The position numbers and the translations under genes are program-made. DNA of 64,000 nt from a virus, in IMG/VR virus record IMGVR_UViG_3300049169_000021, positions 1 through 64,000 of that record. One strand, written 5' to 3'. The notes beneath the pieces were generated by a model. That model was not told the origin of the DNA. It did not search any database and saw only the letters and a program-made list of their open reading frames with translations. This document shows positions 5,460-51,635 of the stretch, piece after piece; the first letter of the stretch is position 1; each line of letters opens with the position of its first letter.

Positions 5460-5460
5460 G

Positions 5461-14716: not shown

Positions 14717-14739
14717 ACACCCGAACCACAGGAGGCCTC

Positions 14740-31323: not shown

Positions 31324-33126
31324 TCAGGCGCCGATGATGCGGATGCTCGGCTCCGGCACTTCCTCCGGCTCGACCCGCGCCAGATGCATCGCCAGCGCGT
31401 TCAGCCCGGAGGCCACGCCGTCGATGCGCTTACTGCTCGTCTGCCGGTCGGGCTTGACCGGCTTCACATAGCCGTCGGTGTTCGTCTTCAGGCCCACGCA
31501 GTCGATGTGCCAGCGCAGGATCGGATGCCCGCCGTGCGCGATCCGCTGGGACAGCACCAGGCGCTCCAACTGCTGGCACGGCTGGTTCAGCCCCGCGTAG
31601 CCCTGGGACACCTGCTCCATCTCCAGCCCCGCGTCGGCCAGTTCCTTCACCGTCTCCGTGGCGTTCCACCGGTCGTAGCCGACTGCGAGGATCTCGAACC
31701 GCTCCGCCAGGTCCTCGGTGATCAGCTCCCGCACGGCCCGGTAGTCGACCACGTTGCCCTCAGTCAGCCGCAGCGCCGGACCGGCGTGCGCCGCCGTCTC
31801 CGCCCACCGGTCCAGCGGCACCTTGGTACGCCTCGTCAGCTCCTTGATGCGGTCCTCGGGCAGCCAGAAGAACGGCACCCAGATGTGCGGCTCCACCGGA
31901 TCGTCCGTCTCCGGCGGGAACCACAGACTGAAGGACGTCATGTCCGTGGTGCTCGACAGGTCCAGCCCGCCGTAGCACTGCCTTCCCTCGAGGGCCGACA
32001 GCTCTACCGCCACCGGCACGCCCGAGGGGGTGCGCGCGCTGGCGTCCCAGTCCTCCATCCGCAGCCACCGGGTGGTCTGCTTCGTGCGGACGTTCAGGTG
32101 CAGCCGCAGGTACCGGTTCAGCTGCTGCGGCGAACGCTGCGCCTGCGCGGCCTTGCCCGCCAGGTAGTCCGCCAGCACCGTGACCCCGTAGCCCGGGTTG
32201 GCCGTGCGCAGCGTCTCCTCGGCGAACGGGTCGAACTCCTCGGCCGACTCGTCCGCGCCGAACACCACACCCCACACCGTGGGGTCCTCGGCGTGCCCGC
32301 CGGCCAGGGCCTCGATCTCCTCGCGCTTCGTCGCGTAGATCGAGCCGGTCTCCGCGCCGTCGTCCGCCGTGGTGATGAACACGATCAGCGGCTGGGTACG
32401 CGAGCCGGTACCCGTCTCCAGGGCATCGACGACGTCTGGGTTCTTGTGGACGTGGACCTCGTCGATGACGCCGCCGTGCACGTTGAGACCGTGCGCGCGC
32501 AGACCCTCGCTCGACAGGGCCCGGAAGATGGAGTGCGTGACCGGGTGCTCCAGCAGCTTGCGCTGAATGCCCCGACGGCCCAGCTTCCTCTTCAACGGCG
32601 GCGACCCCGACGCCATGTTCGCGGCCGCGCGGAAGACGATGTTCGCCTGGTCGCGGTCACCGGCCGCCGCGTACACCTCCGCGCCGGCCTCCCGGTCCGC
32701 GGCGAACAAGTACAGACCCAGCCCCGAGCAGATCGTGGACTTGCCGTTCTTGCGGGGGATCTCGAACCACACGGTCCGGATCACCCGGTAGCCGTCGGGG
32801 CGCTTCAACCCGAACACCGGCGCGATCAGGTAGCGCACCTGCCAGTCCAGCAGCCGGAACTCACGCCCGGCGTGACGGCCGATCAGCTGCTTCAGCAGCA
32901 GGAAGAACTTCAGGACCCGCTCGACCGCTTCCGGATCGAACCACGTCCCAGGCGGCGCCGGAAGCGGCGTGCACATCAGCGGCCGTCGGCCCTCGGCGAG
33001 CCACTCGGTGCCCTGCACCAGGCCCTCGTCGACCCACCGCGCCACCGCTTCGTCGATCTCGCGCGTCAGCTGCACGCGCCGCGCTGCCTCAGTCGAGGAT
33101 GCCGTCCCCCGGGTCATCGTCGTCAC
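31324..33126 (-). CDS. terL: Terminase large subunit
   Basis: PRKNGKS, IDEVH, ITTA, GLDLS, YDRW, IDG. Confidence 0.95.
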   Translation of the reverse strand: MTTMTRGTASSTEAARRVQLTREIDEAVARWVDEGLVQGTEWLAEGRRPLMCTPLPAPPGTWFDPEAVERVLKFFLLLKQLIGRHAGREFRLLDWQVRYLIAPVFGLKRPDGYRVIRTVWFEIPRKNGKSTICSGLGLYLFAADREAGAEVYAAAGDRDQANIVFRAAANMASGSPPLKRKLGRRGIQRKLLEHPVTHSIFRALSSEGLRAHGLNVHGGVIDEVHVHKNPDVVDALETGTGSRTQPLIVFITTADDGAETGSIYATKREEIEALAGGHAEDPTVWGVVFGADESAEEFDPFAEETLRTANPGYGVTVLADYLAGKAAQAQRSPQQLNRYLRLHLNVRTKQTTRWLRMEDWDASARTPSGVPVAVELSALEGRQCYGGLDLSSTTDMTSFSLWFPPETDDPVEPHIWVPFFWLPEDRIKELTRRTKVPLDRWAETAAHAGPALRLTEGNVVDYRAVRELITEDLAERFEILAVGYDRWNATETVKELADAGLEMEQVSQGYAGLNQPCQQLERLVLSQRIAHGGHPILRWHIDCVGLKTNTDGYVKPVKPDRQTSSKRIDGVASGLNALAMHLARVEPEEVPEPSIRIIGA

Positions 33127-33547
33127 CCTCCGGCTTCACCGAGCGGAGGCGGGCGTTCGGCGTGATGAACAGCTCCTTCGCCAGAGCCGCAACGGTCGTT
33201 GCCGCCTCCCGCCAGATCTGCCAGGCCGGGTTCTTCGCCGGGCCGTTGCCCGCCCGCCGCTCGGCCACCAGGTCGTCGCTCTGCAGCAGCTGCTCGGCCG
33301 CCACGAACTTCGACCAGGCCGAGCAGTACGTAGCCACCGCAGCCCGGTCCACCTTCGCCAGGACGCCCAGCCGGTCGAGGTCGGGCACGATCCGCTCCCA
33401 CTCGGCGCGTGCCTCGTCATCCAGCCAGTCGGGCACGTCCGGCACGCCGGGCGAGGCGGTCACGCGGGCGGGAGCTGGCCGGCCGCCGGGGTTGCCCCGC
33501 AGGGCACGGACGTTGTCGGACTGGCCGACGGGACCACGGGCACCCAT
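33089..33547 (-). CDS. terS: Terminase small subunit (P27 family)
   Basis: LRGNPG...PDWL...EWERI...KNPA...TPNAR. Confidence 0.9.
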   Translation of the reverse strand: MGARGPVGQSDNVRALRGNPGGRPAPARVTASPGVPDVPDWLDDEARAEWERIVPDLDRLGVLAKVDRAAVATYCSAWSKFVAAEQLLQSDDLVAERRAGNGPAKNPAWQIWREAATTVAALAKELFITPNARLRSVKPEGDDDDPGDGILD

Positions 33548-33697
33548 GGCTCACCCCCAGGGCATGTCACGTGATGTGAGCGGCGGTTACAAGATCCTCA
33601 GAAACCCGGCTGAAACTGGCGGTCGCGCGCGCACCGCCCCCGCCTGCGTTCGAAACCCTCCCCGGCGGAAAGATTCACATCCCCCCTGGGGGTGCGA

Positions 33698-34411
33698 TCA
33701 CGTCGCCGGGGTCATCTGGTCTGCGCGGTAGACGCGCCACCAGGACTCGATCGCTTCAATCGTATCGCCTGGCCGGCCATCTCGGCGAGCGCGGCGCACG
33801 CATTCGTCCTCGGGGATGGCGAGGACCACGACGTGCGCTCCGGGGGTGAGCCGCTCGCGGTCTGCCTGCCTGGGGGCGGTGGCGATGACCCAGACCGCGT
33901 TGAGGTTGTGGGCTCGGTCGAGGCGGGCGAGGACGGCGTCTCTCGCTTCGGCGATGAAGGGCCGCAGGGCGGCGGGGTGTTCGTGGCCGTGGGGTGAGCC
34001 GAGAGCCAGGGCGAGCGCGTCCCAGTCGACGACGAGGTCTCCGGGCTCGGCGTGCTCGCGTACCCAGGTGGTCTTGCCGGAGCAGGGTGGCCCGCACACC
34101 AGGGTGATGCGGGCGGTGTGTTGGAGGCGTCGGCCGCCGTCGGCGAAGCCGGTCTCGCGTGCGGTCTTGGCGTCGTGGCAGGGCTTGCACATGGCTTGGA
34201 GGTTGGCCCGGTCGAACGCGAGCTGCTCGTTGCCTCGGTGGGGTCGGATGTGGTCGACGACGGTGGGTGGGCGTCCGCACCCGGCGCGGCAGAGGGCCTC
34301 TTCGGATAGGACCTGGTCGCGAAGGAGGGCCCATCGTGGGTCGTCGTAGACCCAGCGCCAGGCGGCTGCGGTCTGCCTCGCCTTGCGGCGGTGGGCCGGG
34401 GTCGCGCCCAT
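33698..34411 (-). CDS. HNH endonuclease fused to a P-loop NTPase/kinase domain
   Basis: VVDHIRPH...NLQAMCKPCH then LVCGPPCSGKTT...VVDWD. Confidence 0.85.
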   Translation of the reverse strand: MGATPAHRRKARQTAAAWRWVYDDPRWALLRDQVLSEEALCRAGCGRPPTVVDHIRPHRGNEQLAFDRANLQAMCKPCHDAKTARETGFADGGRRLQHTARITLVCGPPCSGKTTWVREHAEPGDLVVDWDALALALGSPHGHEHPAALRPFIAEARDAVLARLDRAHNLNAVWVIATAPRQADRERLTPGAHVVVLAIPEDECVRRARRDGRPGDTIEAIESWWRVYRADQMTPAT

Positions 34412-34665: not shown

Positions 34666-34667
34666 GG

Positions 34668-34994: not shown

Positions 34995-35195
34995 TCAAGC
35001 GGCGTTGCTGGTGCGTCTCTCGATGACGAGTGCGGCGACGTCCTGCCAGGCGTACCAGGGTTGTCGTGGTGTGCCGCCGGAGCGCTTCAGCCGGCCGCGT
35101 CGGACGAGTTGGCGGACGCCGTCGAGGCTGATGCCGAGCTGCTGGGCGGTCTGGTGGGCGGTGAGGTGGCCGGGCCGGATGTTCTGCGACTCCAT
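34995..35195 (-). CDS. MerR/HTH_17-like DNA-binding protein
   Basis: LTAHQTAQQLGISLDGVRQLVRRGRL. Confidence 0.8.
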   Translation of the reverse strand: MESQNIRPGHLTAHQTAQQLGISLDGVRQLVRRGRLKRSGGTPRQPWYAWQDVAALVIERRTSNAA

Positions 35196-35280
35196 GGCCC
35201 CATGATGCGTCAGTGGTGTCGGCTGCGAGGGGTACTCAGATTGTGAGTACCCCTGGGCTTTGAGGGGATCGCCTGAAGGC

Positions 35281-35372
35281 CCGAAACCCGAAACCTTGCA
35301 GCTCAGCCCCGATATCGGGGGCGAAACCGGTTTCGGGGTGTGGTGAAACCACAGGCGCTTCCCGAAACCGGT
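35281..35372. repeat. Cluster of (C)GAAACC repeats downstream of traB-like gene (candidate clt)
   Basis: GAAACC at 35283, 35290, 35323, 35345, 35364; inverted copy at 35329. Confidence 0.65.
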
Positions 35373-35382
35373 TCGCGGGGGT

Positions 35383-37503
35383 CTATTCGCCGTCCTCGGG
35401 GGCCGGTAGGTCGGCCCATCGGAGGCCCTTGGCGCCGCCGCAGCACTCCCGGATGGTGAGCTGCCGGGTGGCCACCCTGAACGGCTTCAGGGCCGTGCTG
35501 AGGGCGGTGGATGCCTCGCCGACGGCCATCTCGGTCCACGGCTTGTACAGGTCGGGCCGGTAGGCGGCGAGAGCTTCGACGAGGCGGTGGGAGTGGACGG
35601 CCTCGGTGCCGTCGGGCCAGATGGCGCGGACGTGGTCGACGACCGTCTCGACGTCGAGTTCTTCGACCTGGGCGCCGACGGACTGCCCGGACAGTGTGCC
35701 GGCGGCGGTGCGCAGGGCGAGGGCGCGCTTGGCGATGTCCTCGGCTTCGGTCTGCTTGATGAACGCGGCCCGCACGGTGATGCCTTCGCGGCCGCGGGCG
35801 AGGATGCCGGTGCCCTGCTCGTCGATGCTGATGTCGGTGGCGCGCAGGCCGCGGTCGTAGGCGCCGGTGCCGAGGACGTTGTTGTTGGCGCGCCAGTCCA
35901 TGACGGCGAGGCAGAGGCGGGTGCCGACGGAGCTGGAGACGGAGCTGGGCAGGCTCGGGGCGTCGGGGTTCTGGGTGAGGAGGATGAGGATGATGCCGTA
36001 GGCGCGGGCCTTCTTGATGAGGCGGGTGGCGAGGGCTGCGGCCTCTTCCTTGTAGTCGTCGTGGGTGAACAGCTCCTGTACCTCGTCGATGACGATGACC
36101 CGGGGGCCGAGGTTCTGCTCGGGGTACTTCTCGGCGAGGGCGCGGGTGACCTTGCGGCCGTCGGGGACCTCGGAGGCGGGCAGGGAGCGCACGAACGCGG
36201 CGCGGCGCTGGTACTCGGCGATCCCGGATCGCATTCCGGCGAGGGCGGCTTCGAGGTCTTCGTCTTCGTCGCCGGACACGTAGCGGTGGCAGATCGGTTT
36301 GACGGAGTCGAGGTCGCCGGAGCCCTTGAGTTCGTAGATCCACAGTTCGGCGGTGGGGTCGAGGGCGACGCCGAGGACGATGGCGAGCGCGCACGAGGTC
36401 TTGCCGCTGCCGGGGATGCCTCCGACGAGGAGGTTGGAGTACATGAGGGTGATCTCGACGAGGTTGCCGCGCGGGTCGAAGCCGTAGGGCAGCGGCTGGT
36501 AGACGTCGGCCTGGCCGTCCTTCATGAGGGGCCATAGCTTGCGGCCGGCCTTGGCGGGGTCGCGCTGGGCGACCCACAGGACGAGGCGGCCGGGGTGGGC
36601 GGTGCGGTCGGCCTCGGGCCACACGGTGCTGATGGGCCGTCGCATGGCCGCGGCGAGGGCGGCCCGCTTCTCCAGCACGGCGGTGGCCTCGACGCCGGGC
36701 GGGAGGTCGACTTCGGCGCGCCATCCGGGGCCGTCGCGCATGACCTCGGAGGCGAATTCGACGCCGCGGCGGCCCTTCTTGCCTTCGATGCCGATCGCGG
36801 CGAGGGCGTCGAAGACTTCGGTGGAGTCGAGGCGGCGCAGGACGTTGGTGGCGACGTAGCGGGTGATGAGGGGCTTGTCGCCCTTCTTCCCGGCCACGCC
36901 GGCCAGGGCGGCGGCGGCGACGGCCGCAGTGAGGGTCCAGCCGGGCGCCAGGAATGAGCTGACCAGGGCGGTGATACCGGTGGTCGTGGCGACGGCGAGG
37001 GAGGCGATGCGGCGGGGGCGGACGCGGCGGGAGTGCTCGCGCGAGAGGGCGAGCCAGGCATCGATGTCGGCGGAGGCGGCGGCCTTGGCCTCGACGGGCC
37101 GGGCGTCGGTGTCGGCGACCCACTTGCCCCACCGGACGATGAGGCGCCCTGTGCCGCGCGGGGCGCGCAGTAGGAGGCGGCCGAGGTAGACGGGCGCGCG
37201 GAGGGCGTGGAAGCCAGTGAGGTGGGCGTAGTAGGACGCGGCCCAGCGGACGGTGTCCTTGAAGACGGTCCAGCGGCGCAGGGCCGGGGGGACGACGGGC
37301 GGGGCGTCGGCGAGGTATGCCTGCTTCTCGGCGATCCACGTGCCGGCGGGCGGGGCCTGCTCGGGCGGGTCGACAGGACGCGGTTCGGCGTTGGCGACGA
37401 CGTCGATGATGGTCTGGGTGAGGTCTGCGTCATGGGCGTCCTCGGCGTCCTGCGGGGGCGTCCTGGGCGCGTCCTTGTGGAGCTGGACGACGTTGTTCGT
37501 CAT
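35383..37503 (-). CDS. FtsK/SpoIIIE-family TraB-like conjugative DNA translocase
   Basis: N-terminal TM pair, GGIPGSGKT Walker A, IVIDEVQ Walker B, TQ motif, C-terminal wHTH-like domain. Confidence 0.9.
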   Translation of the reverse strand: MTNNVVQLHKDAPRTPPQDAEDAHDADLTQTIIDVVANAEPRPVDPPEQAPPAGTWIAEKQAYLADAPPVVPPALRRWTVFKDTVRWAASYYAHLTGFHALRAPVYLGRLLLRAPRGTGRLIVRWGKWVADTDARPVEAKAAASADIDAWLALSREHSRRVRPRRIASLAVATTTGITALVSSFLAPGWTLTAAVAAAALAGVAGKKGDKPLITRYVATNVLRRLDSTEVFDALAAIGIEGKKGRRGVEFASEVMRDGPGWRAEVDLPPGVEATAVLEKRAALAAAMRRPISTVWPEADRTAHPGRLVLWVAQRDPAKAGRKLWPLMKDGQADVYQPLPYGFDPRGNLVEITLMYSNLLVGGIPGSGKTSCALAIVLGVALDPTAELWIYELKGSGDLDSVKPICHRYVSGDEDEDLEAALAGMRSGIAEYQRRAAFVRSLPASEVPDGRKVTRALAEKYPEQNLGPRVIVIDEVQELFTHDDYKEEAAALATRLIKKARAYGIILILLTQNPDAPSLPSSVSSSVGTRLCLAVMDWRANNNVLGTGAYDRGLRATDISIDEQGTGILARGREGITVRAAFIKQTEAEDIAKRALALRTAAGTLSGQSVGAQVEELDVETVVDHVRAIWPDGTEAVHSHRLVEALAAYRPDLYKPWTEMAVGEASTALSTALKPFRVATRQLTIRECCGGAKGLRWADLPAPEDGE

Positions 37504-37589
37504 GCTGGGGCTTCCTGCCTCTTGCTGGGGTACGGACGCCCGGGGACGGTCGGACACGCTGGCCGCATGTGGCCGTCCCCGGGGCGGTG

Positions 37590-37775
37590 CTAGTTCTTCT
37601 GCTTGCGGCGGCGGGCCGCGTTCTCGATGCGCTCGATGCGCCGCTTGAGGTCGCTGAGGTCGACGCGGCCGGTGCCGTCGTCGGCGAGGCCGCGCTTGGC
37701 CATGCGGGCGGTCAGGACGGCGATGCGGGTCTTCTCGCCGGTGGTGAAGTCCCTGAAGCTGAGGTCGTCGTCCAT
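37590..37775 (-). CDS. Small basic protein (DUF6257-like)
   Basis: FTTGEKTRIAVLTARMAKR...RIERIE. Confidence 0.7.
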   Translation of the reverse strand: MDDDLSFRDFTTGEKTRIAVLTARMAKRGLADDGTGRVDLSDLKRRIERIENAARRRKQKN

Positions 37776-37776
37776 G

Positions 37777-37944
37777 TCAGCGCTGCCCCTTCTTGCTGGC
37801 TTTGGCCTTGTGCTCGCGGCCCATCTGCTCGGCGCGGTGGGCGCTTTCGGTTTGCCAGCCGGTGGCGCCGCAGCTGCACACGTACTCGTACTTGCGGCCG
37901 CCTTGGGCGAGCCTGACGGAGATGTGGTGGCTGTTCCCGAACAC
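37777..37944 (-). CDS. Small Zn-ribbon protein resembling mobile-element transfer proteins
   Basis: YVCSCG...AEQMGREH; AGGAGG RBS. Confidence 0.65.
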   Translation of the reverse strand: MFGNSHHISVRLAQGGRKYEYVCSCGATGWQTESAHRAEQMGREHKAKASKKGQR

Positions 37945-38039
37945 GGTTCCTCCTGGGTGTGGGCCGGGCTGTCCGGCCCCACCGCACCCCCGCAACTGCC
38001 TCCCTCTGGGAGGCGGTTGGCGGAGGACGGAAGGGCAGG

Positions 38040-38369
38040 TCAGCGGCCCTTGAGGTATTCGCGCCACATCGAGCGCAGGACGAGCAGGCAGGCTGTGGCG
38101 CAGGTGCCGCCGATGGCGACTGCCACGGAAGCGAGGGCGAACGCGAGGGCGAGGACGCTGGCCGCGCCGACGCCGACGATGGCGAGGCCGCCGATCGTCA
38201 GCCACTTCTTCGTGTCGAACTGCGGCGGTGCCGCGTGATGGCAGCCCTGGTGTTGCGGCTGCTGTGCCGTCTTGGCCAGCTCGACCGCGGCGAGCGCGAC
38301 CTGTACGGCGGCCGAGTTCACCGCGGCCTCTCTCACTGCGGCCTCGGCTTTGTCGAGGGCGTCGCTCAT
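38040..38369 (-). CDS. SpdD-like membrane protein
   Basis: Long C-terminal hydrophobic stretch ending CLLVLRSMW. Confidence 0.65.
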   Translation of the reverse strand: MSDALDKAEAAVREAAVNSAAVQVALAAVELAKTAQQPQHQGCHHAAPPQFDTKKWLTIGGLAIVGVGAASVLALAFALASVAVAIGGTCATACLLVLRSMWREYLKGR

Positions 38370-38542
38370 GCCGTCCACCTCCGGACGCGGCGGACGATGG
38401 CAGGACGGGCGAGGACGCCGATGGTGAAGGCGAGGACGGCAGGCTGCCCGGCCAGGTAGGCGAGCGTCCCGGCGGTGATCGACAGCGCGGCCGGCCAGAG
38501 CAGAAGGACCCCGAGCAGGGCGCCGAGCAGGATCGCCTTCAT
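38366..38542 (-). CDS. Small membrane protein
   Basis: MKAILLGALLGVLLLWP... 58 aa, coupled both sides. Confidence 0.7.
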   Translation of the reverse strand: MKAILLGALLGVLLLWPAALSITAGTLAYLAGQPAVLAFTIGVLARPAIVRRVRRWTA

Positions 38543-39396
38543 ACGCCCACCCCCACGTGGGGCGCGTTGAGCTGCTCGGGGTGGAAGAGGTTGCGTCCTC
38601 GGGCGTCCTGAGAGTGGACGGGGATGCGTCCTACGGCGACCCAGTTGCGGACGGTGGACGGCTTGATGCCGTAGTGGGCGGCGACGTCGTTGGACGTCAT
38701 CAGCGGCGGCTCAGGACGCGGTCCGTCGTCGGCGTCCTCGCCCGTCCCGGCTTCCAGCTCCGGCGTCCCGTCGGCGTCCTGGGTGTCCTCGCGTTCGAGG
38801 GTCACGGTGGGCTGGGGGCGGGCGACGAGGGGCAGCAGCCGGGCGTCGGCGGGCACGACCTTGGGTGCTGGGCGGACGCTCGGGACGGTCGGGGACGCGG
38901 TGGCGTCCTCGGTGTCCTGCGCGTCCTGGTGTACATGCGGCGGGGTGGCTGCGAGGTGCAGGAGGTGCCCGACGACGGCCGGCGGCACGAGCGAGGTGAC
39001 CGCGATCAGTAGCGGCTGGTCGGCGACGAGGTGTCCGGTGGAGATGAGGTGGGAGACCACCTGGGCGGCCATGGCGAGGCCGAGGGCGAGGCAGGCGCCG
39101 ATGATGGCGGACCAGCGTCCTCGGTCGCCGGGGCGGCGGGTGGAGGCGACGGCGGCCGCGATGCCAGCGTAGGCGGACAGGACGACCGGCATGCCGTAGG
39201 TGAACGGGTCGTCCCATCCGGCGTTGCGGGCGAGGTGGTACTCGCCGGGCGCGCACATGAGGAGGGCGACACCGAGGACGACGGGGCGGCCGCCGGCGGT
39301 GAGGCCGCGCACCCACAGCGGCGCCGCCTGGCGGCGGCCGGGCGCGGTGGTGGGGCGGCGGAACCATCGGGCGAGGACGCTGCGGATCTTCCTCAC
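38539..39396 (-). CDS. DUF2637/Spd-like 4-TM protein with C-terminal HTH
   Basis: Four TM segments, Pro-rich linker, LMTSNDVAAHYGIKPSTVRNWV. Confidence 0.75.
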   Translation of the reverse strand: MRKIRSVLARWFRRPTTAPGRRQAAPLWVRGLTAGGRPVVLGVALLMCAPGEYHLARNAGWDDPFTYGMPVVLSAYAGIAAAVASTRRPGDRGRWSAIIGACLALGLAMAAQVVSHLISTGHLVADQPLLIAVTSLVPPAVVGHLLHLAATPPHVHQDAQDTEDATASPTVPSVRPAPKVVPADARLLPLVARPQPTVTLEREDTQDADGTPELEAGTGEDADDGPRPEPPLMTSNDVAAHYGIKPSTVRNWVAVGRIPVHSQDARGRNLFHPEQLNAPHVGVGV

Positions 39397-39995
39397 AGGT
39401 CCTCACCCCGAGCGCGGTTCTCGGCGTGGCTGAGCTGCGACGGCTTGGTGCGGGGGCCGTCGACCCAGGCGAAGGGGCGCGTGGTGGCCGCGACCTCGAA
39501 GACCTTGATGGCGGCGCCGTCCGGGGCGTCCGGCAGCGGGTACACCCGGCCGCCCTCCAGCGAGGCCAGGAGCCGGGCGCCGTGGTGCTCGCAGCCGTCT
39601 GCGCCAGCGTTCGTGGCGTCCAGTACGGTCACGACGATCGGGCCGGTGCAGGGGGTGAGGTCCTCGACGTGCGCGGCCGGGCACCGGAGTGCGGGCGGCT
39701 CGTCGGTCACCGGGTGGGCGGTCGGCTCGGCGTCGAGGGCACGCAGCAGGAGACGGAGGGCCTCGCGGAGGCTGGGCACCTGGTCGCTGTCGAGCAGCTG
39801 CTGGGCGACGCTGATGGCGACGTCGAGGTCACTCGGCTCGCGCCCCGTGGCGACGTTGTTCGGGTACCGGGTGCCGAGGGAGGCCCGAGCGACCTTGGCG
39901 GCGTTGCTGTTGTAGTCCTGCCTGGCAAGTTGGTGCAGCTCAGCAACGCGTGCGGAACTTGCGGCCCTGTACGGGCGCGCGAAATGATCGGTCAT
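39393..39995 (-). CDS. Hypothetical protein (Cys/His motif)
   Basis: CPAAHVEDLTPC...GCEHHGARLLASL; AGGAG RBS. Confidence 0.75.
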   Translation of the reverse strand: MTDHFARPYRAASSARVAELHQLARQDYNSNAAKVARASLGTRYPNNVATGREPSDLDVAISVAQQLLDSDQVPSLREALRLLLRALDAEPTAHPVTDEPPALRCPAAHVEDLTPCTGPIVVTVLDATNAGADGCEHHGARLLASLEGGRVYPLPDAPDGAAIKVFEVAATTRPFAWVDGPRTKPSQLSHAENRARGEDL

Positions 39996-40095
39996 GCCGA
40001 CTCCTGGTTTGGTCAGGGGTTCGGTGGAGGGTCGGGCGGTGCGATCGCCTCCCGGGTGTTCCAGCACCTGGGAGAGCTGCCGTCCGGCCCTCGTC

Positions 40096-40305
40096 CTATT
40101 CGGTTGTGTGCTTCTTGATCGCCCTTGCTACGGCGGTCCAGCTGAGGCCGATCTCGTGGGCTACGGCGTAGACGCTGCCGAGTTCGTTCTTCCCGTCTTT
40201 CAGGGCGAACGCTCGTCGTCTGAGGGCGGCCTCCGTCTGGGCGGCGAGCTGTTCCAGCAGCTCATCCTCCGTGCGAAGGCGTTCCCTCCAGGGGATCGCT
40301 TCCAT
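40096..40305 (-). CDS. Small HTH regulator heading the transfer operon
   Basis: SVYAVAHEIGLSWTAVARAI. Confidence 0.7.
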   Translation of the reverse strand: MEAIPWRERLRTEDELLEQLAAQTEAALRRRAFALKDGKNELGSVYAVAHEIGLSWTAVARAIKKHTTE

Positions 40306-40315
40306 CCCCACGAAC

Positions 40316-40355
40316 GTATCACACAGAGGGTTATGCACAACAGGGTGTGTGACAC
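40316..40355. promoter_or_regulatory. Palindromic operator/promoter of the transfer operon
   Basis: GTATCACACA...TGTGTGACAC in an AT-richer spacer. Confidence 0.55.
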
Positions 40356-40367
40356 TCGGTGTGTCCG

Positions 40368-42452: not shown

Positions 42453-44063
42453 TCATGCAGCGGCGGGAAGAATCAGCTGGCCGAGCACGCGGCCCACGCG
42501 GTCCTGGTCGATGAGGTCGGCGACATCGCCCGCCGTACTGCCGCGCGGCACATGGATGCCGAGACGCCGGCACAGACCGAGCTGCTTGTCACTGGGCTGG
42601 CTGCGACGCCACCGGGCCTCGCGGGCGACGAACGCCCCCGGGGCCAGCACCTTGGCCTGCTGCTCCAGCCACGCCAGCGCCTCCGGCAGCGGCCGGGCAA
42701 CGTCGTCCTTCGGCGGGTGCACACCGTCCGCCTGCGTCCAGCGGCGCATCCGGTACAGCCGGGTCCCGGGGTCACGGACGAGGAACAGGAACATGGCGCC
42801 GGTCAAGCGGATGAACCACGTACCGTCCTCGGTGCGCAGCCACCGGATCGCGGACTCGCCGAACAGGTTGATCTCCTCGGCGGTCACCTGAGCGGCGAGC
42901 GCGCGCCGCTTCTCGCGGGCGCCGTGCTCTTCGGCGACCTGCCGCAGGCTCTTGCCCTCATCGGCCTCGCCGATCTCCCGCTCAGTGAGGTCGACCATCG
43001 AGGCGAGCTTGTGACGGCTCGCGGCGCCCATGACGTCGAGCAGCAGCGCGTCGCGCTTTCCTGGCGCCGGACGGAGGCCGCGGCCGACCATCTGCACGTA
43101 CAGACCGGGCGACTTGGTCGGGCGAGCGACCACGATGCAGCTGGTGTGCGGAGCGTCGAACCCCTCGGTGAGCACCATGCAGTTGGTGAGCACCTGCACG
43201 TCGCCCGCCACGTACCGGGCCAGGGTGGCGCGTCGCTCGTCGCGGCCCATGTCGCCCCACACCGGGGCCGCGGTGACGCCGACCGCACGCAGCGACTCGG
43301 CGGCGGCCTGCGCCGTCGCCACGGTCGGCGTGAAGACGACGCCGGCCCGGTCCGCTGCGTGGTCGACGTACGCCTTGGCGATCGCGTCCAGCGCGCCGGA
43401 GTCCTCCAACGCCTTGCCGAGCTGGCCGTCGACCAGGTCGCCGCCGCGCGTTTTCACCTTGTTGAGGTCGAGGGTGTCGACGGTGATGGCCTTGCCGCGG
43501 ACGTCGCACAGGTAGCCGTCGCTGATCATGTCGAGGATGTCGAGGCGGAAAACAACGTCTTCCCAGACCTCGGCCAGGCCGCCGTCGGTGCGGGTCATCG
43601 TCGCGGTGAAGCCAGCCGTCGGGACGCCGTCCCAGGCGCCGAAGTGCTGGAGTACCTCCATGTAGGTGCGGGCGGCGGCGTGGTGGCACTCGTCCACGAT
43701 GATCAGGCCGATGTCGCGGATGGCCTCGCGACGGCGGGCGACGGCGAGGGTCTGGACGCTGGCCACGATCACGTCGGCGTCGTGGTGGTCGTCGCGCTGA
43801 GCCTTGACGATCCCGACCCGCAGCATCGGGTCCACGGCCAGGAGCTTGGAAGCCGCCTGCTCGATCAGCTCTTCACGGTGGGCGATGACGAGAGCTCGGC
43901 GTCCGCCGAGGCTGTCGAGCATCTGGTGGGCCAGGTGCGAGAAGACGACAGTCTTACCGGCGCCAGTAGGGAGGACGACGGCCACGCGGTTCTTGCCGTC
44001 GGCCCACCCCTGACGCAGCGCCTCGATGGCGTCGAGCTGGTAGGGGCGAGGGGTGAAGGACAT
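42453..44063 (-). CDS. SF2 DEAD/DEAH-box helicase
   Basis: RPYQ, PTGAGKT, DECHH, TAT, TEGFD, QMVGRGLR. Confidence 0.95.
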   Translation of the reverse strand: MSFTPRPYQLDAIEALRQGWADGKNRVAVVLPTGAGKTVVFSHLAHQMLDSLGGRRALVIAHREELIEQAASKLLAVDPMLRVGIVKAQRDDHHDADVIVASVQTLAVARRREAIRDIGLIIVDECHHAAARTYMEVLQHFGAWDGVPTAGFTATMTRTDGGLAEVWEDVVFRLDILDMISDGYLCDVRGKAITVDTLDLNKVKTRGGDLVDGQLGKALEDSGALDAIAKAYVDHAADRAGVVFTPTVATAQAAAESLRAVGVTAAPVWGDMGRDERRATLARYVAGDVQVLTNCMVLTEGFDAPHTSCIVVARPTKSPGLYVQMVGRGLRPAPGKRDALLLDVMGAASRHKLASMVDLTEREIGEADEGKSLRQVAEEHGAREKRRALAAQVTAEEINLFGESAIRWLRTEDGTWFIRLTGAMFLFLVRDPGTRLYRMRRWTQADGVHPPKDDVARPLPEALAWLEQQAKVLAPGAFVAREARWRRSQPSDKQLGLCRRLGIHVPRGSTAGDVADLIDQDRVGRVLGQLILPAAA

Positions 44064-44089
44064 GGGGCACCTCGATTCGGTGGTGGAGG

Positions 44090-44375
44090 GGGAGTGGTAC
44101 GCGCTGCGTACCGGCTGCGTACCGGCTGCGTACCGGGGTAAAAGCGGCTCTGACCTGCTCTTATGTATCTCTCTAGAGCCAGTGGTACGCAGGTACGCAG
44201 AAACACAGAGGGGTCGATGTGTGCGCACACGCACGCACGCACACGCGCACGCGCCCACGCCTGAGGGGTGCCATTTCCGGGCGACTGCGTACCGCCCCGA
44301 AAGCGGCCGTTTACATGCCGCTGACCTGCGGCGATTCGGTCGCCGCGGTGGTACGCAGTCGGTGCGTACCACCGC
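44090..44375. other. Putative replication origin with CTGCGTACC iterons
   Basis: About nine copies on both strands, three at 11-bp period; AT-richer segment; between primase and helicase genes. Confidence 0.7.
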
Positions 44376-44386
44376 CGTTGCGGCGC

Positions 44387-47227: not shown

Positions 47228-47457
47228 CGCTTCTCCCCGTGGTACGCGGCCAGGTGCTGGCCCTTGATCTCGGCGACGAACGCCTGAACCGCGGCCGATC
47301 CGACTACCGGTCCTTCGCGGCGCTGGGGGCAGCCGGGGCGGTAGCACTCGTAGCGAGCGCGGACGTTGTCGGTGTCGATGACCAACAGGCCGTCGAGCTG
47401 CTGGGGGATGGGGGTGCGGGCCGGCGTGTCCCGGGCCCGCGCGGTCGAGGTGGTCAC
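47224..47457 (-). CDS. Small Zn-binding protein
   Basis: YECYRPGC...H...H. Confidence 0.65.
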   Translation of the reverse strand: MTTSTARARDTPARTPIPQQLDGLLVIDTDNVRARYECYRPGCPQRREGPVVGSAAVQAFVAEIKGQHLAAYHGEKR

Positions 47458-49427: not shown

Positions 49428-49673
49428 ATGGAGTCACCACAGTCACCACGCAGTCCACGAGTCTGGTACTTCTACTCTGACGATCTGCCCGATGACGAGA
49501 TCCTTGTGCCCATCAAGAATGAGCATGGGCTGGCATTCGCAGTGCGCCCCGGTCCGTGGATGAGTCCGGAGATGCTCGACCGACTCAACGAGGCGGCGGA
49601 GCATGTACTGGGCGTGGGGCTCGCGCATCTGGACGTCGGACGCATCGACAAGCCCCCCGACCGGAAGGAGTAG
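49428..49673 (+). CDS. Small hypothetical protein upstream of int
   Basis: 81 aa, GGGAG RBS. Confidence 0.7.
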   Translation: MESPQSPRSPRVWYFYSDDLPDDEILVPIKNEHGLAFAVRPGPWMSPEMLDRLNEAAEHVLGVGLAHLDVGRIDKPPDRKE

Positions 49674-49678
49674 CACTC

Positions 49679-51367
49679 ATGCCGTCAGCACGCCGTGCAG
49701 GAAGCATCTACCGCCGATGCGAGTGCCGCGGTGGGGACGGCAAACTGCTGGGCAACGCCTGCCCACAGCTCAAGAAGAAGTCGCACGGTTCCGTCGCACT
49801 CCGCCAGGAGCTGCCGCCGGACGCCGACGACAAGCGCCGGACCTTCCGGCGTACCGGGTACAAGTCCGTCACGGAGGCCCAGGGCGACCTCTCCCGCCTA
49901 CAGGCCATCCTCGCGCTCCCCGGTGACGACGAAGACGAACAGCGCAGGGTCGGGGATCTGCTCGCAGACATTTCGAAGCGACGCGCCGACATCCCCGAAC
50001 CATCAGAAGTACAGCGCCGCCTCGGCGTCGGCGTCCCCCTCGACGGCAAGGCCACGGTCGGCGAATGGCTCGACCGCTGGATGTCGAACAAGAAGACGCG
50101 CCCCACCACGAACAACGGCTATGCCTCCCACATTCGCGTGCACCTGAAGCCGCGCATCGGACACCTGCGCCTGGACCGGCTCGGCGTCGGGCACGTCCAG
50201 GAGATGTTCGACGCGATCGCCGACGAGAGCGACGTGATCCGGGCAGAGAACGACGCCCGACGCGAGCAGGAAGCGCGCTGCAAGTGGTCGAAGCCTGGGC
50301 GACCGCCGGCCAAGGAACGGCCGAGGCTCGCCGCCGAGCGCGCGAAACTCGCCGAGATGAAGCCATACCGGAAGACGAACACCGTGGCGACGCGGCACGC
50401 GATCCGGCGCACCCTGCGGGCCGCCCTCAACAAGGCGATCGCCGAACAATTGATCACGTTCAACGCGGCCGCCCACGTCGAACTCGGCTCCAGCGCGCGC
50501 CCCAAGGGACTGCTGTGGACCGACGAACGAGTAGCCCGCTGGCGAGAGACGGGCAAGCAGCCGTCGCCCGTCATGGTGTGGACGCCCGTCCAGCTCGGCG
50601 CATTCCTCGACGAGGCCGAGAGCAGCAGGCTGTACGCCGCCTTTCACGTCATCTCGCACCATGGCCTGCGCCGCGGCGAGGCCGTTGGCGCGGACTGGGC
50701 GAACGCGCACCTGGAGGCCGCACAGCCCCGCCTTGACGTCCTCACTGAACTCGTTGTCGACGGCTGGGAGGTCATCGAGACGGCGCCCAAGACGGACTCG
50801 TCGATGTCATCGGTGATGATCGACCGCGGGACCGTGAGGGTCCTCAAGGAGCACCGGGCCCGTCAGATGCAGGAGCGGGACGCGTGGAACGCGATGGCCG
50901 CCGCGGAACGGGCAGCGGGTAAGCAGACAGCAGACTGGACCGACACGGGCAAGATCTTCGCTGCGGAGGATGGGAGCTGGCTCCATCCTGACGTAGTCAG
51001 CAAGGAGTTCAAACGGATCGTCGAGGCCGCGGATCTGCCTCCGATCAACCTCCGGGACCTGCGCCACGGCGCGGCCGCGCTGGTGAAGGCCGGCGGCGGA
51101 GACGTGCATGACGCCAAGGTGAAGCTGCGTCACTCAACCATCACCCTGACCGCAGACACGTACCTCGAACTGTTCACGGAGTACGAGCAGGAGCTGACGG
51201 AGAAGGCGGCCGCCGCAGTGCCGCGTGCTCGCCGCGGGCGTGGAACGGCCCCCGCCCCGGACGCTGTACCGGGGCAGGGGCCGAGCGCAGCGTTGCAGCC
51301 AGCAGACGCTGAAATGGACGCTTCCACGGTACGGGCCAGCACTGACAACGACCCCTCTGCGACGTAG
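49679..51367 (+). CDS. int: Tyrosine integrase (phage B)
   Basis: HGLRRGE, APK, LRDLRH, LRH, DTY motifs. Confidence 0.95.
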   Translation: MPSARRAGSIYRRCECRGGDGKLLGNACPQLKKKSHGSVALRQELPPDADDKRRTFRRTGYKSVTEAQGDLSRLQAILALPGDDEDEQRRVGDLLADISKRRADIPEPSEVQRRLGVGVPLDGKATVGEWLDRWMSNKKTRPTTNNGYASHIRVHLKPRIGHLRLDRLGVGHVQEMFDAIADESDVIRAENDARREQEARCKWSKPGRPPAKERPRLAAERAKLAEMKPYRKTNTVATRHAIRRTLRAALNKAIAEQLITFNAAAHVELGSSARPKGLLWTDERVARWRETGKQPSPVMVWTPVQLGAFLDEAESSRLYAAFHVISHHGLRRGEAVGADWANAHLEAAQPRLDVLTELVVDGWEVIETAPKTDSSMSSVMIDRGTVRVLKEHRARQMQERDAWNAMAAAERAAGKQTADWTDTGKIFAAEDGSWLHPDVVSKEFKRIVEAADLPPINLRDLRHGAAALVKAGGGDVHDAKVKLRHSTITLTADTYLELFTEYEQELTEKAAAAVPRARRGRGTAPAPDAVPGQGPSAALQPADAEMDASTVRASTDNDPSAT

Positions 51368-51586
51368 ACTTGAGGGACAGGCAAAGGGCCTCCGACCTGC
51401 GGGTTGGGGGCCCTTACTGCTGGCCCGGTGCTGGCCCGAACGCCACGTAAGAGCGCGATACGCGGTGGGGTGAGATGGGGTGAAGGCTCGGACCGGAGGG
51501 GAGTCAAACGGCCCCTGAGCTGCACTCCGTGGGGTGCAATGGGGTGAGGCAAAGTCGACGGGTCGTAGTGTCATGGGCACTCATCA

Positions 51587-51631: not shown

Positions 51632-51635
51632 ATCG

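What the first reader, a model, noticed from the sequence alone, without database searches (positions are those of the whole stretch)
35281..40355. Tailed phage carrying a plasmid/AICE-type conjugative transfer operon (TraB + Spd-like genes)
Seen: inside an otherwise intact siphovirus lies a co-directional operon with its own palindromic operator. It encodes a small HTH, a Cys/His protein, a 4-TM DUF2637-like protein, a small TM protein, an SpdD-like protein, a Zn-ribbon protein, a basic protein and an intact FtsK/TraB ATPase. Established: Streptomyces plasmids and AICEs (pSAM2, pSVH1, pIJ101) transfer dsDNA with a single TraB plus Spd proteins. Inference: the excised phage circle could spread by TraB-mediated conjugation or cross-wall passage as well as by virions, making it a dual-mode phage/AICE hybrid.
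Basis: partly seen in the sequence, partly recalled or inferred. Interest (0 to 1): 0.85.

Follow-up and report, generated by a model that had tools for sequence, protein, structure and literature searches.

The report
Phage-borne TraB DNA-transfer module
A 39-kb temperate tailed phage of Streptomyces carries the DNA pump (TraB), its likely docking repeats and membrane helper genes that Streptomyces plasmids use to push double-stranded DNA between hyphae, and about a hundred related phages keep the same pump and repeats, so these phages probably have a second, particle-free way to spread, which has not been tested.

Summary
On the minus strand, 40367 to 35281, there is a promoter with a palindrome, then eight genes: a small HTH, a 200-aa protein, a 4-segment membrane protein with an HTH_17 tail, two small membrane proteins, a 55-aa Cys/His protein, DUF6257 and an intact 706-aa FtsK-type ATPase. 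A GGTTTCG repeat array follows. The block lies between the replication and packaging genes of a siphovirus.

The ATPase groups with plasmid and AICE TraB (pSVH1, pSG5), not with chromosomal FtsK or the FtsK-like protein of a lytic phage. DUF6257 and a membrane gene sit in the same order in AICE transfer operons.

The repeat array follows the stop codon in about 90 of 94 related loci, including those only 52-65% identical. pSVH1's known clt lies at the same place.

This is not a one-off hybrid. Orthologues at 70-94% identity lie upstream of terminase genes in 48 loci, amid otherwise mosaic phage genomes. The sister group, at 36-44% identity, was a classical AICE in all 16 sampled cases.

Function is inferred only. 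Known precedents are the plasmid-phage pZL12 and the SpdB2 homologues of phiC31 and VWB. This scan has already noted the same kind of module on other DNA (56 notes). I rate it a new variant of a known kind, interest 0.66.

The parts
40306..40367 (-). Promoter-like region (TTGTGC, about 17 nt, GATACGTT) overlapped by the palindrome GTGTCACACA..TGTGTGATAC; candidate operator of the operon
   Evidence: Sequence. In 25 relatives the same 50-70 nt gap between the upstream gene's stop and the HTH gene holds a -35/-10-like pair with a lineage-specific palindrome. The consensus sigma-70 scan found nothing.
40096..40305 (-). 69-aa HTH protein, first gene; candidate autoregulator
   Evidence: Weak Pfam HTH_Tnp_ISL3 hit, 0.0039. 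The start at MEAIPW is set by alignment with relatives. Homologues were found upstream of the ATPase in 29 of 79 loci.
39393..39995 (-). 200-aa protein of unknown function (3 Cys, 7 His)
   Evidence: No Pfam, PHROG, NCBIfam or PADLOC hit. Homologues in 34 of 79 loci.
38539..39396 (-). 285-aa integral membrane protein with C-terminal HTH_17/MerR-like DNA-binding domain; SpdB-position protein
   Evidence: HTH_17 2.8e-6; phrog_16651 9e-11. Hydrophobic segments. phmmer 6e-8 and BLASTP 3e-5 (48 aa) to the DUF2637 protein of pPaSha2. Pfam DUF2637 not hit.
38366..38542 (-). 58-aa membrane protein; start and stop overlap the neighbouring genes
   Evidence: Hydropathy. Overlapping start/stop codons.
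38040..38378 (-). 112-aa membrane protein, homologous to a gene of an AICE transfer operon
   Evidence: phmmer 3.8e-10 to the gene between RRQRL and DUF6257 in the excised AICE NZ_CP108827.1. Homologues in 33 of 79 loci.
37777..37944 (-). 55-aa basic CxC/His protein; it occupies the position of the RRQRL zinc-binding protein of AICEs but has no detectable similarity to it
   Evidence: AGGAGG upstream of the GTG start. No family hit. phmmer found no match to RRQRL proteins.
37590..37775 (-). 61-aa DUF6257 protein, directly upstream of the translocase as in plasmids and AICEs
   Evidence: Pfam DUF6257 7.1e-22. DUF6257 genes lie directly upstream of FtsK/TraB in NZ_CP107886.1 and NZ_CP108827.1. 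phmmer 1.5e-9 and 2.9e-10.
35383..37503 (-). 706-aa TraB-type FtsK/SpoIIIE dsDNA translocase: N-terminal helical region with two moderately hydrophobic helices, alpha/beta motor, C-terminal winged-helix-like domain
   Evidence: PF01580 30.4 bits against a cut-off of 24. phmmer to TraB of pSG5 2e-41 and of pSVH1 9e-37. Tree. Foldseek FtsK motor 6t8o 4.5e-13. Walker motifs invariant.
35282..35369 (-). clt-like array: GGTTTCG, N13, GGTTTCA, N10, CGAAACCGGTTTCG, CCCCGATATCG, CTGAGCTGCAA, GGTTTCGGGTTTCG
   Evidence: Five of the window's 12 GGTTTCG sites lie here. It is the only cluster in the 96.9-kb contig. The same architecture follows the stop codon in about 90 of 94 loci, against a background of 0.17 sites per kb. 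pSVH1 positive control.
35229..35253 (-). Inverted repeat GGGGTACTCA-caatc-TGAGTACCCC between the array and the next gene; terminator or operator
   Evidence: Sequence. Not examined in relatives.
34995..35195 (-). 66-aa MerR/excisionase-like HTH protein following the module
   Evidence: phrog_2474 2.3e-11; HTH_17 3.5e-4. A homologue lies within 1.5 kb downstream of the ATPase in 52 of 95 loci.
31324..34411 (-). Packaging genes just downstream: HNH endonuclease, small terminase, large terminase
   Evidence: PHROG hits: HNH/phrog_4581 3e-53, phrog_83 2e-35, phrog_9 6e-141.
42453..47347 (-). Replication genes just upstream: SNF2/DEAD helicase and PrimPol-DUF927 primase
   Evidence: Pfam ResIII 1e-28, DUF927 5.5e-34, Prim-Pol 3.6e-9.
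49556..51722 (+). Tyrosine integrase and attP-like site (tRNA-Lys 3' fragment 51572-51630, flanked on both sides by GCTGGCCCG pairs)
   Evidence: Pfam Phage_integrase 8.5e-9. Sequence and repeats. No second copy of the core in the contig.
14710..15489 (+). GntR-UTRA regulator at the lysis end of the phage; a possible Kor-type partner of the translocase (speculative)
   Evidence: Pfam GntR 3e-13, UTRA 1e-19. Homologues lie about 5 kb upstream of the ATPase, divergently, in only 2 loci.

Best explanation
The block is a genuine TraB-clt DNA-translocation module of the Streptomyces plasmid/AICE type. It is carried as a regular part of the genome of a roughly 38.9-kb temperate siphovirus.

Most likely mechanism (inferred):
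- The phage genome becomes a circular double-stranded replicon, either after excision or on infection.
- The operon is switched on from its own operator-controlled promoter.
- The membrane-associated TraB hexamer docks through its C-terminal winged-helix-like domain on the GGTTTCG array just behind its gene.
- TraB then pumps the phage DNA through the membrane, with the small membrane proteins acting as Spd-like helpers. The DNA moves across hyphal cross-walls (intramycelial spread), and perhaps into neighbouring mycelium (conjugation), without virions.

Shown here: homology of the pump to TraB, synteny with AICE transfer operons, and family-wide conservation of pump plus repeat array in phage genomes.

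Inferred: DNA binding, membrane pore formation, timing, and any transfer.
For: 1. Kinship of the ATPase.
- phmmer gives 2e-41 to TraB of pSG5 and 9e-37 to TraB of pSVH1.
- The tree places the window clade inside the plasmid/AICE translocases (SH-aLRT 89). Its sisters are an excised AICE and two phage-like Pseudonocardia replicons (97).
- It is apart from chromosomal FtsK, two other host paralogues and the lytic-phage FtsK-like protein.
- The fold is that of the FtsK motor (6t8o, E 4.5e-13), followed by the conjugative coupling protein TcpA.

2. Synteny.
- DUF6257 lies directly upstream of the pump, as in NZ_CP107886.1 and NZ_CP108827.1.
- The 112-aa membrane gene is homologous to the gene at the matching place in NZ_CP108827.1.
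- A multi-pass membrane protein heads the block, as spdB2 does in pSVH1.

3. Cis site.
- There are 5 direct and 1 inverted GGTTTC(G) within 88 nt after the stop codon. This is the only such cluster in 96.9 kb.
- The same architecture is kept in about 90 of 94 loci, down to 52% protein identity and in three other genera, while the spacers vary.
- The same analysis recovers the published pSVH1 repeats GACCCGGA x5. It also finds a private repeat array behind other plasmid/AICE traB genes in six of the seven further replicons checked (pPaSha2 showed none; in NZ_CP107886.1 the top word occurs only 3 times); five of these replicons, and pSVH1, also carry a shared CTGAnCTGC word, which is present here too.
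- Literature: clt loci are 7-9-bp direct and inverted repeats beside the 3' end of tra, and are bound by TraB/TraA (PMC3583192, PMC4447253).

4. It is part of the phage.
- In 48 of 60 loci tested (chosen for having a large ORF downstream) the first large ORF downstream is a large terminase.
- Four of the loci without a terminase have convergent tape-measure genes.
- The pump is 83-93% identical across relatives whose terminase and portal are only 23-40% identical to the window's.

5. The phage has its own integrase, an excisionase-like HTH and a PrimPol replicase. It therefore has what an AICE needs to be a transferable circle.
Against: - No experiment. No transfer, binding or expression data exist for any member.
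- The NCBIfam plasmid_TraB equivalog model is missed by far (18 bits against a cut-off of 800).
- The membrane anchor of the pump is weak by hydropathy.
- The winged-helix assignment of the C-terminus is below noise (best Z 6.3).
- Pfam DUF2637 is not hit. None of the accessory genes is shown to be an Spd protein, and their presence varies among relatives (14-47 of 79 loci).
- No adjacent GntR Kil-Kor repressor.
- The module sits in the early/middle lytic gene string, so it could serve a purely intracellular phage function.
Confidence: 0.6

Rival explanations
1. The pump serves an intracellular phage need rather than transfer. It would be loaded at the repeat array, much as FtsK is directed by KOPS. 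There it would resolve or segregate replicated or dimeric phage circles, or drive prophage or plasmid-form copies into spore compartments.
For: The fold and motifs are those of FtsK, which does exactly this for chromosomes. The module lies between the replication and packaging genes. The accessory membrane genes are variable while the pump plus array is invariant.
Against: The nearest relatives with known function are conjugative TraBs, not FtsK. The module keeps plasmid-type partners (DUF6257, membrane proteins) and the sister group is AICEs. A single clustered array resembles clt. KOPS-type guidance uses dispersed, oriented words, and no other cluster exists in the contig.
Confidence: 0.2
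2. The module is a moron that acts on other DNA or on the host. It could give superinfection or conjugation exclusion, act as anti-phage defence, or interfere with host septation and FtsK.
For: PHROG files the ATPase under 'moron/host takeover' (phrog_1358, 1e-28). There are weak PADLOC P-loop hits to mad8 (2.6e-13) and SspH. One relative has a NUDIX gene just upstream, like pSAM2 pif, which blocks redundant transfer.
Against: The PADLOC hits are generic FtsK/HerA P-loop similarity and far weaker than the TraB matches. A conserved cis array beside the gene, on the phage's own DNA, points to action on the phage genome.
Confidence: 0.1
3. The block is a separate AICE, or an AICE remnant, nested in or abutting the prophage. 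It would not be part of the phage.
For: By the Int + Prim-Pol + FtsK/SpoIIIE criteria of Ghinet et al. 2011 (PMC3218068) the right half of the element scores as an AICE. Some basal relatives (Nocardiopsis, L033/L041) have a DUF3987-type gene instead of a terminase downstream.
Against: There is one integrase and one att-like site for the whole 38.9-kb unit. No repeats or second recombinase bracket the block. The same position upstream of HNH and terminase recurs in 48 loci with diverse terminases. Without this region the phage would have no replication genes.
Confidence: 0.04

Closest known systems
tra-spd-clt region of Streptomyces conjugative plasmids pSVH1 and pSG5 (TraB, SpdB2, clt; Thoma et al. 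2015, PMC4447253; Vogelmann et al. 2011 as cited in PMC3583192)
   Same: FtsK-type pump of about 700-770 aa, homologous at 9e-37 and 2e-41. A multi-pass membrane protein and small genes lie upstream in one operon with overlapping stops and starts. An array of short direct repeats lies right behind the pump gene.
   Different: Only about 30% identity, confined to the motor. The repeat word is different (GGTTTCG against GACCCGGA). There is no recognisable SpdB2, SpdB3 or Spd79 and no adjacent GntR TraR. The carrier is a virion-encoding phage, not a plasmid.
L001-type AICEs (excised form NZ_CP107792.1, 18.4 kb: GntR-HD-NUDIX-XRE, DUF2637-RRQRL-FtsK, PrimPol-YfjI-xis-int)
   Same: This is the closest non-phage pump (41-43% identity over 84-95% of the length). 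It has a membrane protein plus small genes before the pump, a repeat array after it, and a PrimPol replicase with a tyrosine integrase. The family is present in about a quarter of 301 Streptomyces species genomes, and all 16 sampled were this AICE type.
   Different: The AICEs have no virion, lysis or terminase genes and are 10-20 kb. Their repeat word is GCTATCGATAGC. They carry RRQRL and Pfam-recognisable DUF2637 proteins, which the window lacks.
Streptomyces plasmid-phage pZL12 / phiZL12 (Zhong et al. 2010, J Bacteriol 192:3747; known to me and cited in PMC3583192 and PMC4487206; the paper itself is not held)
   Same: One Streptomyces element that both makes phage particles and has a conjugal transfer locus with a major tra gene. 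It is the experimental precedent for dual-mode spread.
   Different: pZL12 is a 90-kb autonomous plasmid with ParAB and RepA, and needs tra plus two adjacent genes. The window's phage is a 39-kb integrase-bearing siphovirus. I could not compare the sequences directly.
SpdB2 homologues of temperate phages phiC31 and VWB (noted in Thoma et al. 2015, PMC4447253)
   Same: [quoted passage not shown]
   Different: Those phages are reported to carry only an SpdB2-like gene. No INPHARED phage record has a relative of this pump apart from a 24% match in Gilgamesh. The pump and its cis site are what is added here.
Pseudonocardia circular replicons pPaSha2 (CP052773.1, 41.9 kb) and P. broussonetiae unnamed3 (NZ_CP053567.1, 27.4 kb)
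   Same: These are deposited as plasmids but encode terminase, and pPaSha2 also encodes portal, protease, capsid and holin. Each has a DUF2637-FtsK pair whose pump is 34-39% identical to the window's and falls in its sister group.
   Different: A different genus. They are extrachromosomal as sequenced. pPaSha2 has no repeat array behind the pump, and unnamed3 uses ACCTGACC.

Membership tests
Streptomyces TraB / clt conjugative translocase system | FtsK/SpoIIIE motor domain with intact Walker A and B | tested here: met
   PF01580 30.4 bits (cut-off 24). GSGKTS and VIDE are invariant in 26 orthologues. Foldseek FtsK motor 6t8o E 4.5e-13 over about 417 columns.
Streptomyces TraB / clt conjugative translocase system | Closer to characterised plasmid TraB than to chromosomal FtsK or other FtsK-like paralogues | tested here: met
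   phmmer 2e-41 (pSG5) and 9e-37 (pSVH1). In the quick IQ-TREE the window clade is nested among plasmid/AICE translocases (SH-aLRT 89 and 97). FtsK, two host paralogues and Gilgamesh gp10 fall outside. Branches are long and the careful search did not finish.
Streptomyces TraB / clt conjugative translocase system | Reaches the NCBIfam equivalog model NF041214 plasmid_TraB | tested here: not met
   18.4 bits over 89 residues against a cut-off of 800. It is not an equivalog of the modelled TraB subfamily.
Streptomyces TraB / clt conjugative translocase system | Array of short (7-9 bp) direct and inverted repeats (clt) at or just beyond the 3' end of the tra gene | tested here: met
   5 direct and 1 inverted GGTTTC(G) at 35282-35369. 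Conserved in about 90 of 94 loci. The same method recovers pSVH1 GACCCGGA x5.
Streptomyces TraB / clt conjugative translocase system | C-terminal winged-helix domain that reads the repeats | tested here: inconclusive
   The model of the last 107 aa (core pLDDT about 90) shows H-b-H-H-H-b-b. No Foldseek hit is better than 0.08. VIA best Z is 6.3 and the list is mostly winged-helix domains but within the noise range.
Streptomyces TraB / clt conjugative translocase system | N-terminal membrane anchor | tested here: inconclusive
   Two helices around residues 168-207 are only moderately hydrophobic and fall below the Kyte-Doolittle 1.6 threshold.
Streptomyces TraB / clt conjugative translocase system | GntR-type TraR/KorA repressor next to the tra operon (Kil-Kor pair) | tested here: not met
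   The operon is headed by a 69-aa HTH instead. The only GntR-UTRA gene is 20 kb away at 14710-15489. It is near the pump in only 2 relatives.
Streptomyces TraB / clt conjugative translocase system | TraB binds the repeats and moves dsDNA between hyphae | not testable with these tools
   Needs EMSA or footprinting and mating or pock assays.
AICE (criteria of Ghinet et al. 2011, PMC3218068) | Int + Rep (RepSA, RepAM or Prim-Pol) + FtsK/SpoIIIE Tra in one element, with int at one end | tested here: met
   Phage_integrase 8.5e-9 at 49556-51367, Prim-Pol 3.6e-9 at 44387-47347 and PF01580 at 35383-37503.
AICE (criteria of Ghinet et al. 2011, PMC3218068) | Small element without virion, packaging or lysis genes | tested here: not met
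   The unit is 38.9 kb with TerS, TerL, portal, protease, capsid, tape measure, tail and endolysin.
SpdB2 / DUF2637 spread proteins | Match to Pfam DUF2637, or to SpdB2 of pSVH1 or spdB of an AICE | tested here: not met
   No DUF2637 hit for the protein or 8 homologues at E<=1. No phmmer hit to pSVH1 SpdB2 or to spdB of NZ_CP108827.1. Profile-profile probability 3.5%. Only a 48-aa local match to the pPaSha2 DUF2637 protein.
SpdB2 / DUF2637 spread proteins | Oligomeric four-helix integral membrane protein encoded upstream of traB | tested here: inconclusive
   Two strong hydrophobic segments (95-119, 128-148) and two weaker ones (about 36-55 and 66-86). The position upstream of the pump is as in pSVH1.
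DUF6257 | Pfam PF19771 above gathering score | tested here: met
   77.4 bits (cut-off 26.2), E 7.1e-22.
FtsK-like proteins of lytic Streptomyces phages (e.g. Gilgamesh gp10) | Sequence kinship | tested here: not met
   This is the only INPHARED hit: 24% identity over 46% of the query. It lies outside the TraB-type clade in the tree. The broad family phrog_1358 is hit at 1e-28.
Plasmid-phage of pZL12 type | Autonomous plasmid maintenance (RepA, ParAB) together with virion genes and a tra locus | not tested
   Neither the pZL12 sequence nor the paper was available by reference. The window's phage has an integrase and an attP-like site, and no partition gene was noticed among the genes scanned.

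The most novel reading that the evidence does not exclude
A large, so far undescribed family of temperate Streptomycetaceae, Actinomadura and Nocardiopsis siphophages uses a captured AICE-type TraB-clt machine as a 'movement system'. It would pass the phage genome from compartment to compartment and from hypha to hypha as naked circular dsDNA. Lysogeny or infection would then spread through a multicellular mycelium without particles, and the prophage would in effect also be a conjugative element able to mobilise host DNA. These phages were found in about 2-3% of the species genomes sampled.
Probability: 0.4. Interest if true: 0.85.

Novelty: new variant of a known kind. Interest (0 to 1): 0.66.

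Why it matters
Streptomyces conjugation by a single TraB pump is well studied in plasmids and AICEs. Phages are thought to spread only as particles.

If this module works as its relatives do, a whole family of temperate phages has a virion-independent route through the mycelium. That would be a bacterial analogue of viral cell-to-cell movement. It would blur the line between prophage and AICE. It would also change how lysogeny is thought to establish in a multinucleate, compartmented host. And it would add a route for chromosome mobilisation in antibiotic producers.

The idea is directly testable. The pump and a roughly 90-bp array are the invariant core, so two small deletions in one inducible lysogen would decide it.

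For genome annotation, elements that score as AICEs by Int + Rep + Tra may in fact be full phages. Several 'plasmids' in databases are phages of this kind.

Tried and rejected
1. Direct repeat as att sites: rejected. I first took the long direct repeat (13540-13853 / 52404-52717) for attL/attR. Self-BLAST shows an 808-bp block, 99% identical, of shared genes between two phages. The tRNA-Lys core near the integrase has no second copy.

2. Loci without a terminase as non-phage (AICE) contexts of near-identical pumps: largely rejected. Four have convergent tape-measure genes and others have tail or lysis genes. A few basal ones remain unresolved.

3. DUF2637 membership: Pfam missed at E<=1. hhalign of the protein's family against DUF2637/SpdB proteins gave probability 3.5%.

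4. Defence reading: PADLOC gave only generic P-loop hits.

5. C-terminal domain: neither Foldseek nor VIA-align gave a significant match.

6. Consensus sigma-70 scan: no promoter found in 34400-41000. The promoter call rests on comparison only.

7. Reads:
- The source is a soil metagenome held as contigs.
- Laying four runs showed 85-95% relatives of the pump in other soil metagenomes.
- It also showed them in contigs of one metatranscriptome library. That cannot prove transcription, and I draw nothing from it.

8. Literature: the pZL12 paper (PMC2897331) is not held. Six full-text searches found no description of TraB plus clt in integrated Streptomyces prophages. Absence from this library is not proof.

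9. Tree: the careful IQ-TREE run did not finish in time, so the quick tree is what I cite.

Full report
**What is there**

The window is 70% G+C, so I called genes by third-position GC. Every gene of the finding lies on the minus strand. The unit therefore reads from 40367 down to 35281.

It begins with a 62-nt gap behind the stop of a conserved upstream gene (40368-40985). The gap holds a -35/-10-like pair overlapped by the palindrome GTGTCACACA..TGTGTGATAC. In 25 relatives the same gap holds a similar promoter-like pair with a different palindrome in each lineage. The HTH gene then starts at the equivalent of MEAIPW, that is at 40305 and not 40371. That is the behaviour of a repressor-operator pair.

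Eight genes follow, several with overlapping stop and start codons:
- a 69-aa HTH protein;
- a 200-aa protein without relatives in Pfam, PHROGs, NCBIfam or PADLOC;
- a 285-aa membrane protein with a C-terminal HTH_17 domain;
- a 58-aa membrane protein;
- a 112-aa membrane protein;
- a 55-aa CxC/His protein;
- a 61-aa DUF6257 protein (E 7e-22);
- a 706-aa FtsK/SpoIIIE ATPase.

The ATPase is intact. Its start (MTNNVVQLHK), Walker A (GSGKTS) and Walker B (VIDE) are conserved in 26 orthologues.

**The setting**

The ATPase is followed by a 66-aa MerR/excisionase-like HTH gene. Next come an HNH endonuclease, small and large terminase, portal, protease, major capsid protein, tape measure, a 1268-aa tail protein and endolysin.

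Upstream of the operon lie four small genes, an SNF2-type helicase and a PrimPol-DUF927 primase. Beyond them are an HTH_17 (excisionase-like) and an HTH_3 gene, and a tyrosine integrase at 49556-51367. So the block sits between the replication and packaging modules of a temperate siphovirus.

The source record is a 96,862-bp 'virus record' from a soil metagenome. It holds at least two phages. An 808-bp block (13540-14347 and 52404-53211, 99% identical, 38,864 bp apart) is shared gene content and not an att site.

The integrase is followed by a tRNA-Lys 3' fragment (51572-51630) with GCTGGCCCG pairs on both sides. No second copy of that core exists anywhere in the contig. The simplest reading is that phage A is a 38,864-bp genome (13540-52403) with an intact attP, joined to a second phage through the shared block. 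The join could be recombination or an assembly artefact. I could not decide this.

**Is the ATPase a TraB?**

- tblastn against 50,697 phage records finds only a 24% match in the lytic phage Gilgamesh.
- Among plasmids it finds 73 records, mostly Streptomyces. The best is an 18.4-kb excised AICE (NZ_CP107792.1, 41% over 84%). Next is pPaSha2 of Pseudonocardia alni (39%), which on inspection is a phage with terminase, portal, protease, capsid and holin.
- phmmer gives 2e-41 to TraB of pSG5 and 9e-37 to TraB of pSVH1.
- In a quick IQ-TREE the window clade is nested among the plasmid/AICE translocases (SH-aLRT 89). It has the AICE and the two Pseudonocardia replicons as sisters (97).
- The chromosomal FtsK, two 540-aa paralogues of a host genome and Gilgamesh gp10 fall outside. 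Branches are long and the careful search did not finish, so this is good but not final.
- An AlphaFold model (pLDDT 62.7 overall, 75-89 in the motor) matches the FtsK motor (6t8o, 4.5e-13) and then the conjugative coupling protein TcpA.
- The last 107 residues fold with confidence into helix-strand-three helices-hairpin. The best structural neighbours are mostly winged-helix domains, but the scores lie within noise.
- The NCBIfam plasmid_TraB equivalog is not reached.

I therefore call it a TraB-type translocase of a distinct subfamily, not an equivalog of pSVH1 TraB.

**Synteny with transfer operons**

In the excised AICE NZ_CP108827.1 the order is DUF6284, spdB, RRQRL zinc-binding protein, two small genes, DUF6257, FtsK. 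In NZ_CP107886.1 it is GntR (divergent), sigma-like gene, 378-aa protein, small genes, DUF6257, FtsK, RRQRL. In pSVH1 it is spdB2, small gene, traB.

The window's DUF6257 gene and its 112-aa membrane gene are homologous to the genes at the matching places (phmmer 1.5e-9 to 3.8e-10). The 285-aa membrane protein shows only a short similarity to the DUF2637 protein of pPaSha2. It fails the Pfam DUF2637 model, as do eight homologues. The 55-aa protein shows no similarity to RRQRL proteins.

**The cis site**

- Five of the window's twelve GGTTTCG sites are here. It is the only cluster in the whole contig.
- The same architecture follows the stop codon in about 90 of 94 related loci. These include loci at 52-65% protein identity and in Nocardiopsis and Actinomadura. 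The spacers differ between loci. The background is 0.17 sites per kb over 1.87 Mb.
- As a control, the same script recovers the published pSVH1 repeats (GACCCGGA x5). It also finds a private array behind other plasmid/AICE traB genes, in six of the seven further replicons checked: GCTATCGATAGC, ACCTGACC, CCTCCCCA, AACCGTCT and CCCGGACG. pPaSha2 showed none.
- Most of those arrays also carry a CTGAnCTGC word, which the window has too.
- This fits the literature description of clt. pWTY27 has four 7-bp repeats in 175 bp overlapping the end of traA, bound by TraA. pSVH1 has 8-bp repeats read by helix alpha-3 of the winged helix (PMC3583192, PMC4447253).

**How common, and is it part of the phage?**

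Pattern scans found 60 loci in species genomes (Streptomyces, Actinacidiphila, Actinomadura, Spirillospora, Nocardiopsis). They also found 44 IMG/VR contigs of mostly 34-42 kb, with pumps 52-94% identical.

- In 48 of 60 loci tested (chosen for having a large ORF downstream), the first large downstream ORF is a large terminase, of several different types.
- Four loci without it have a convergent tape-measure gene, and others have tail or lysis genes.
- The pump is 83-93% identical where terminase and portal are 23-40% identical to the window's. It is the best conserved gene of these mosaic genomes.
- On a tree of 90 pumps the two arrangements are interleaved, needing at least 8 changes.
- The accessory genes come and go, being detected in 14-47 of 79 loci.
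- In a sample of 301 Streptomyces species genomes, 6 have an orthologue at 85% or more and 2 have one near 55%. A further 76 have a 36-44% relative.
- All 16 of the latter that I fetched are AICEs of the NZ_CP107792.1 type, with no hit to any terminase or structural protein.

The phage pumps are thus a subclade of a widespread AICE TraB family. This suggests capture of an AICE transfer module by a phage lineage. The direction of capture is inferred.

**Mechanism and rivals**

The best-supported reading is that the phage circle is a substrate of its own TraB. The pump would load at the array and export the double-stranded genome through the membrane, with the small membrane proteins helping passage across cross-walls. 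This is what TraB and the Spd proteins do for pSVH1 (PMC4447253).

- Rival 1, intracellular segregation or resolution: this is the serious rival, and I give it 0.2.
- Rival 2, a moron or defence role: the evidence is weak.
- Rival 3, a nested AICE: the single integrase, the recurrent position and the phage's dependence on this region for replication speak against it.

**Comparison with what is known**

Thoma et al. [quoted passage not shown] The plasmid-phage pZL12 is a laboratory example of an element with both virions and a tra locus (cited in PMC3583192 and PMC4487206; the paper itself is not held).

The FtsK-like genes noted in lytic Streptomyces phages are a different lineage. I found no paper describing a TraB plus clt core conserved across integrated siphophages.

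This scan has noted the same kind of module on other DNA many times: 56 notes in at least 49 genomes. Those notes agree with the present reading but are not independent evidence.

**Verdict**

This is a new variant of a known kind. Function is untested.

Noticed in passing
window 13540-14347 and 52404-53211; 51419-51722; whole contig: The 96.9-kb record looks like two phage genomes joined through an 808-bp shared block that is 99% identical. These are A (13540-52403, 38,864 bp) and B (52404-96862 plus 1-13539, about 58 kb). Phage A's attP (a tRNA-Lys 3' fragment with arm repeats on both sides) is intact. No host gene or complete tRNA is present. The record could be a cointegrate or an assembly join rather than tandem prophages.
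   Followed up: partly
window 40306-40367 and the matching gaps in L004-L102: Each lineage of the family has a different palindrome inside a similar -35/-10-like pair in front of the small HTH gene. This is a natural series of repressor-operator specificities.
   Followed up: partly
window 35298-35306; L115, L116, L119, L120, L122 downstream of traB: A word CTGAnCTGC(A/G)A recurs next to the private repeat arrays of otherwise unrelated clt regions (pSVH1, pSG5, three other plasmids/AICEs) and here. It may be a common feature of clt loci. I do not know whether it has been described.
   Followed up: no
L002 (CP052773.1) and L118 (NZ_CP053567.1): Two Pseudonocardia 'plasmids' are phage-like circular replicons with a DUF2637-FtsK pair. 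pPaSha2 has terminase, portal, protease, capsid, holin and Bet; the other has a terminase. They are likely phage-plasmids or excised phages of the same functional kind in another family.
   Followed up: partly
L015 9406-9837: One close relative (pump 90% identical) has a NUDIX gene immediately upstream of the pump. pif, the NUDIX gene of pSAM2-type AICEs, limits redundant transfer between donors.
   Followed up: no
window 14710-15489: A GntR-UTRA regulator sits at the lysis end of phage A, 20 kb from the pump. In two relatives (L018, L052) its homologue lies about 5 kb upstream of the pump and divergent from it, which is the Kil-Kor arrangement of plasmids.
   Followed up: partly
L008, L015, L017, L037, 12-21 kb: In these prophages the pump operon converges on a 1443-1499-aa tape-measure gene only about 4 kb away. 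Plus-strand DUF6879 and HTH-DUF5753 genes lie between them, and no distal tail or lysis genes do. These are either rearranged or decayed prophages that still keep pump and array intact.
   Followed up: partly
window 17013-18232 and 57895-59117: The tail genes of phages A and B share a 1.2-kb stretch at 73% DNA identity. Both large tail proteins match phrog_5313 with a phosphodiesterase-like C-terminus.
   Followed up: no
window 1-68: The contig starts with a 68-nt near-perfect hairpin (88% self-complementary).
   Followed up: no
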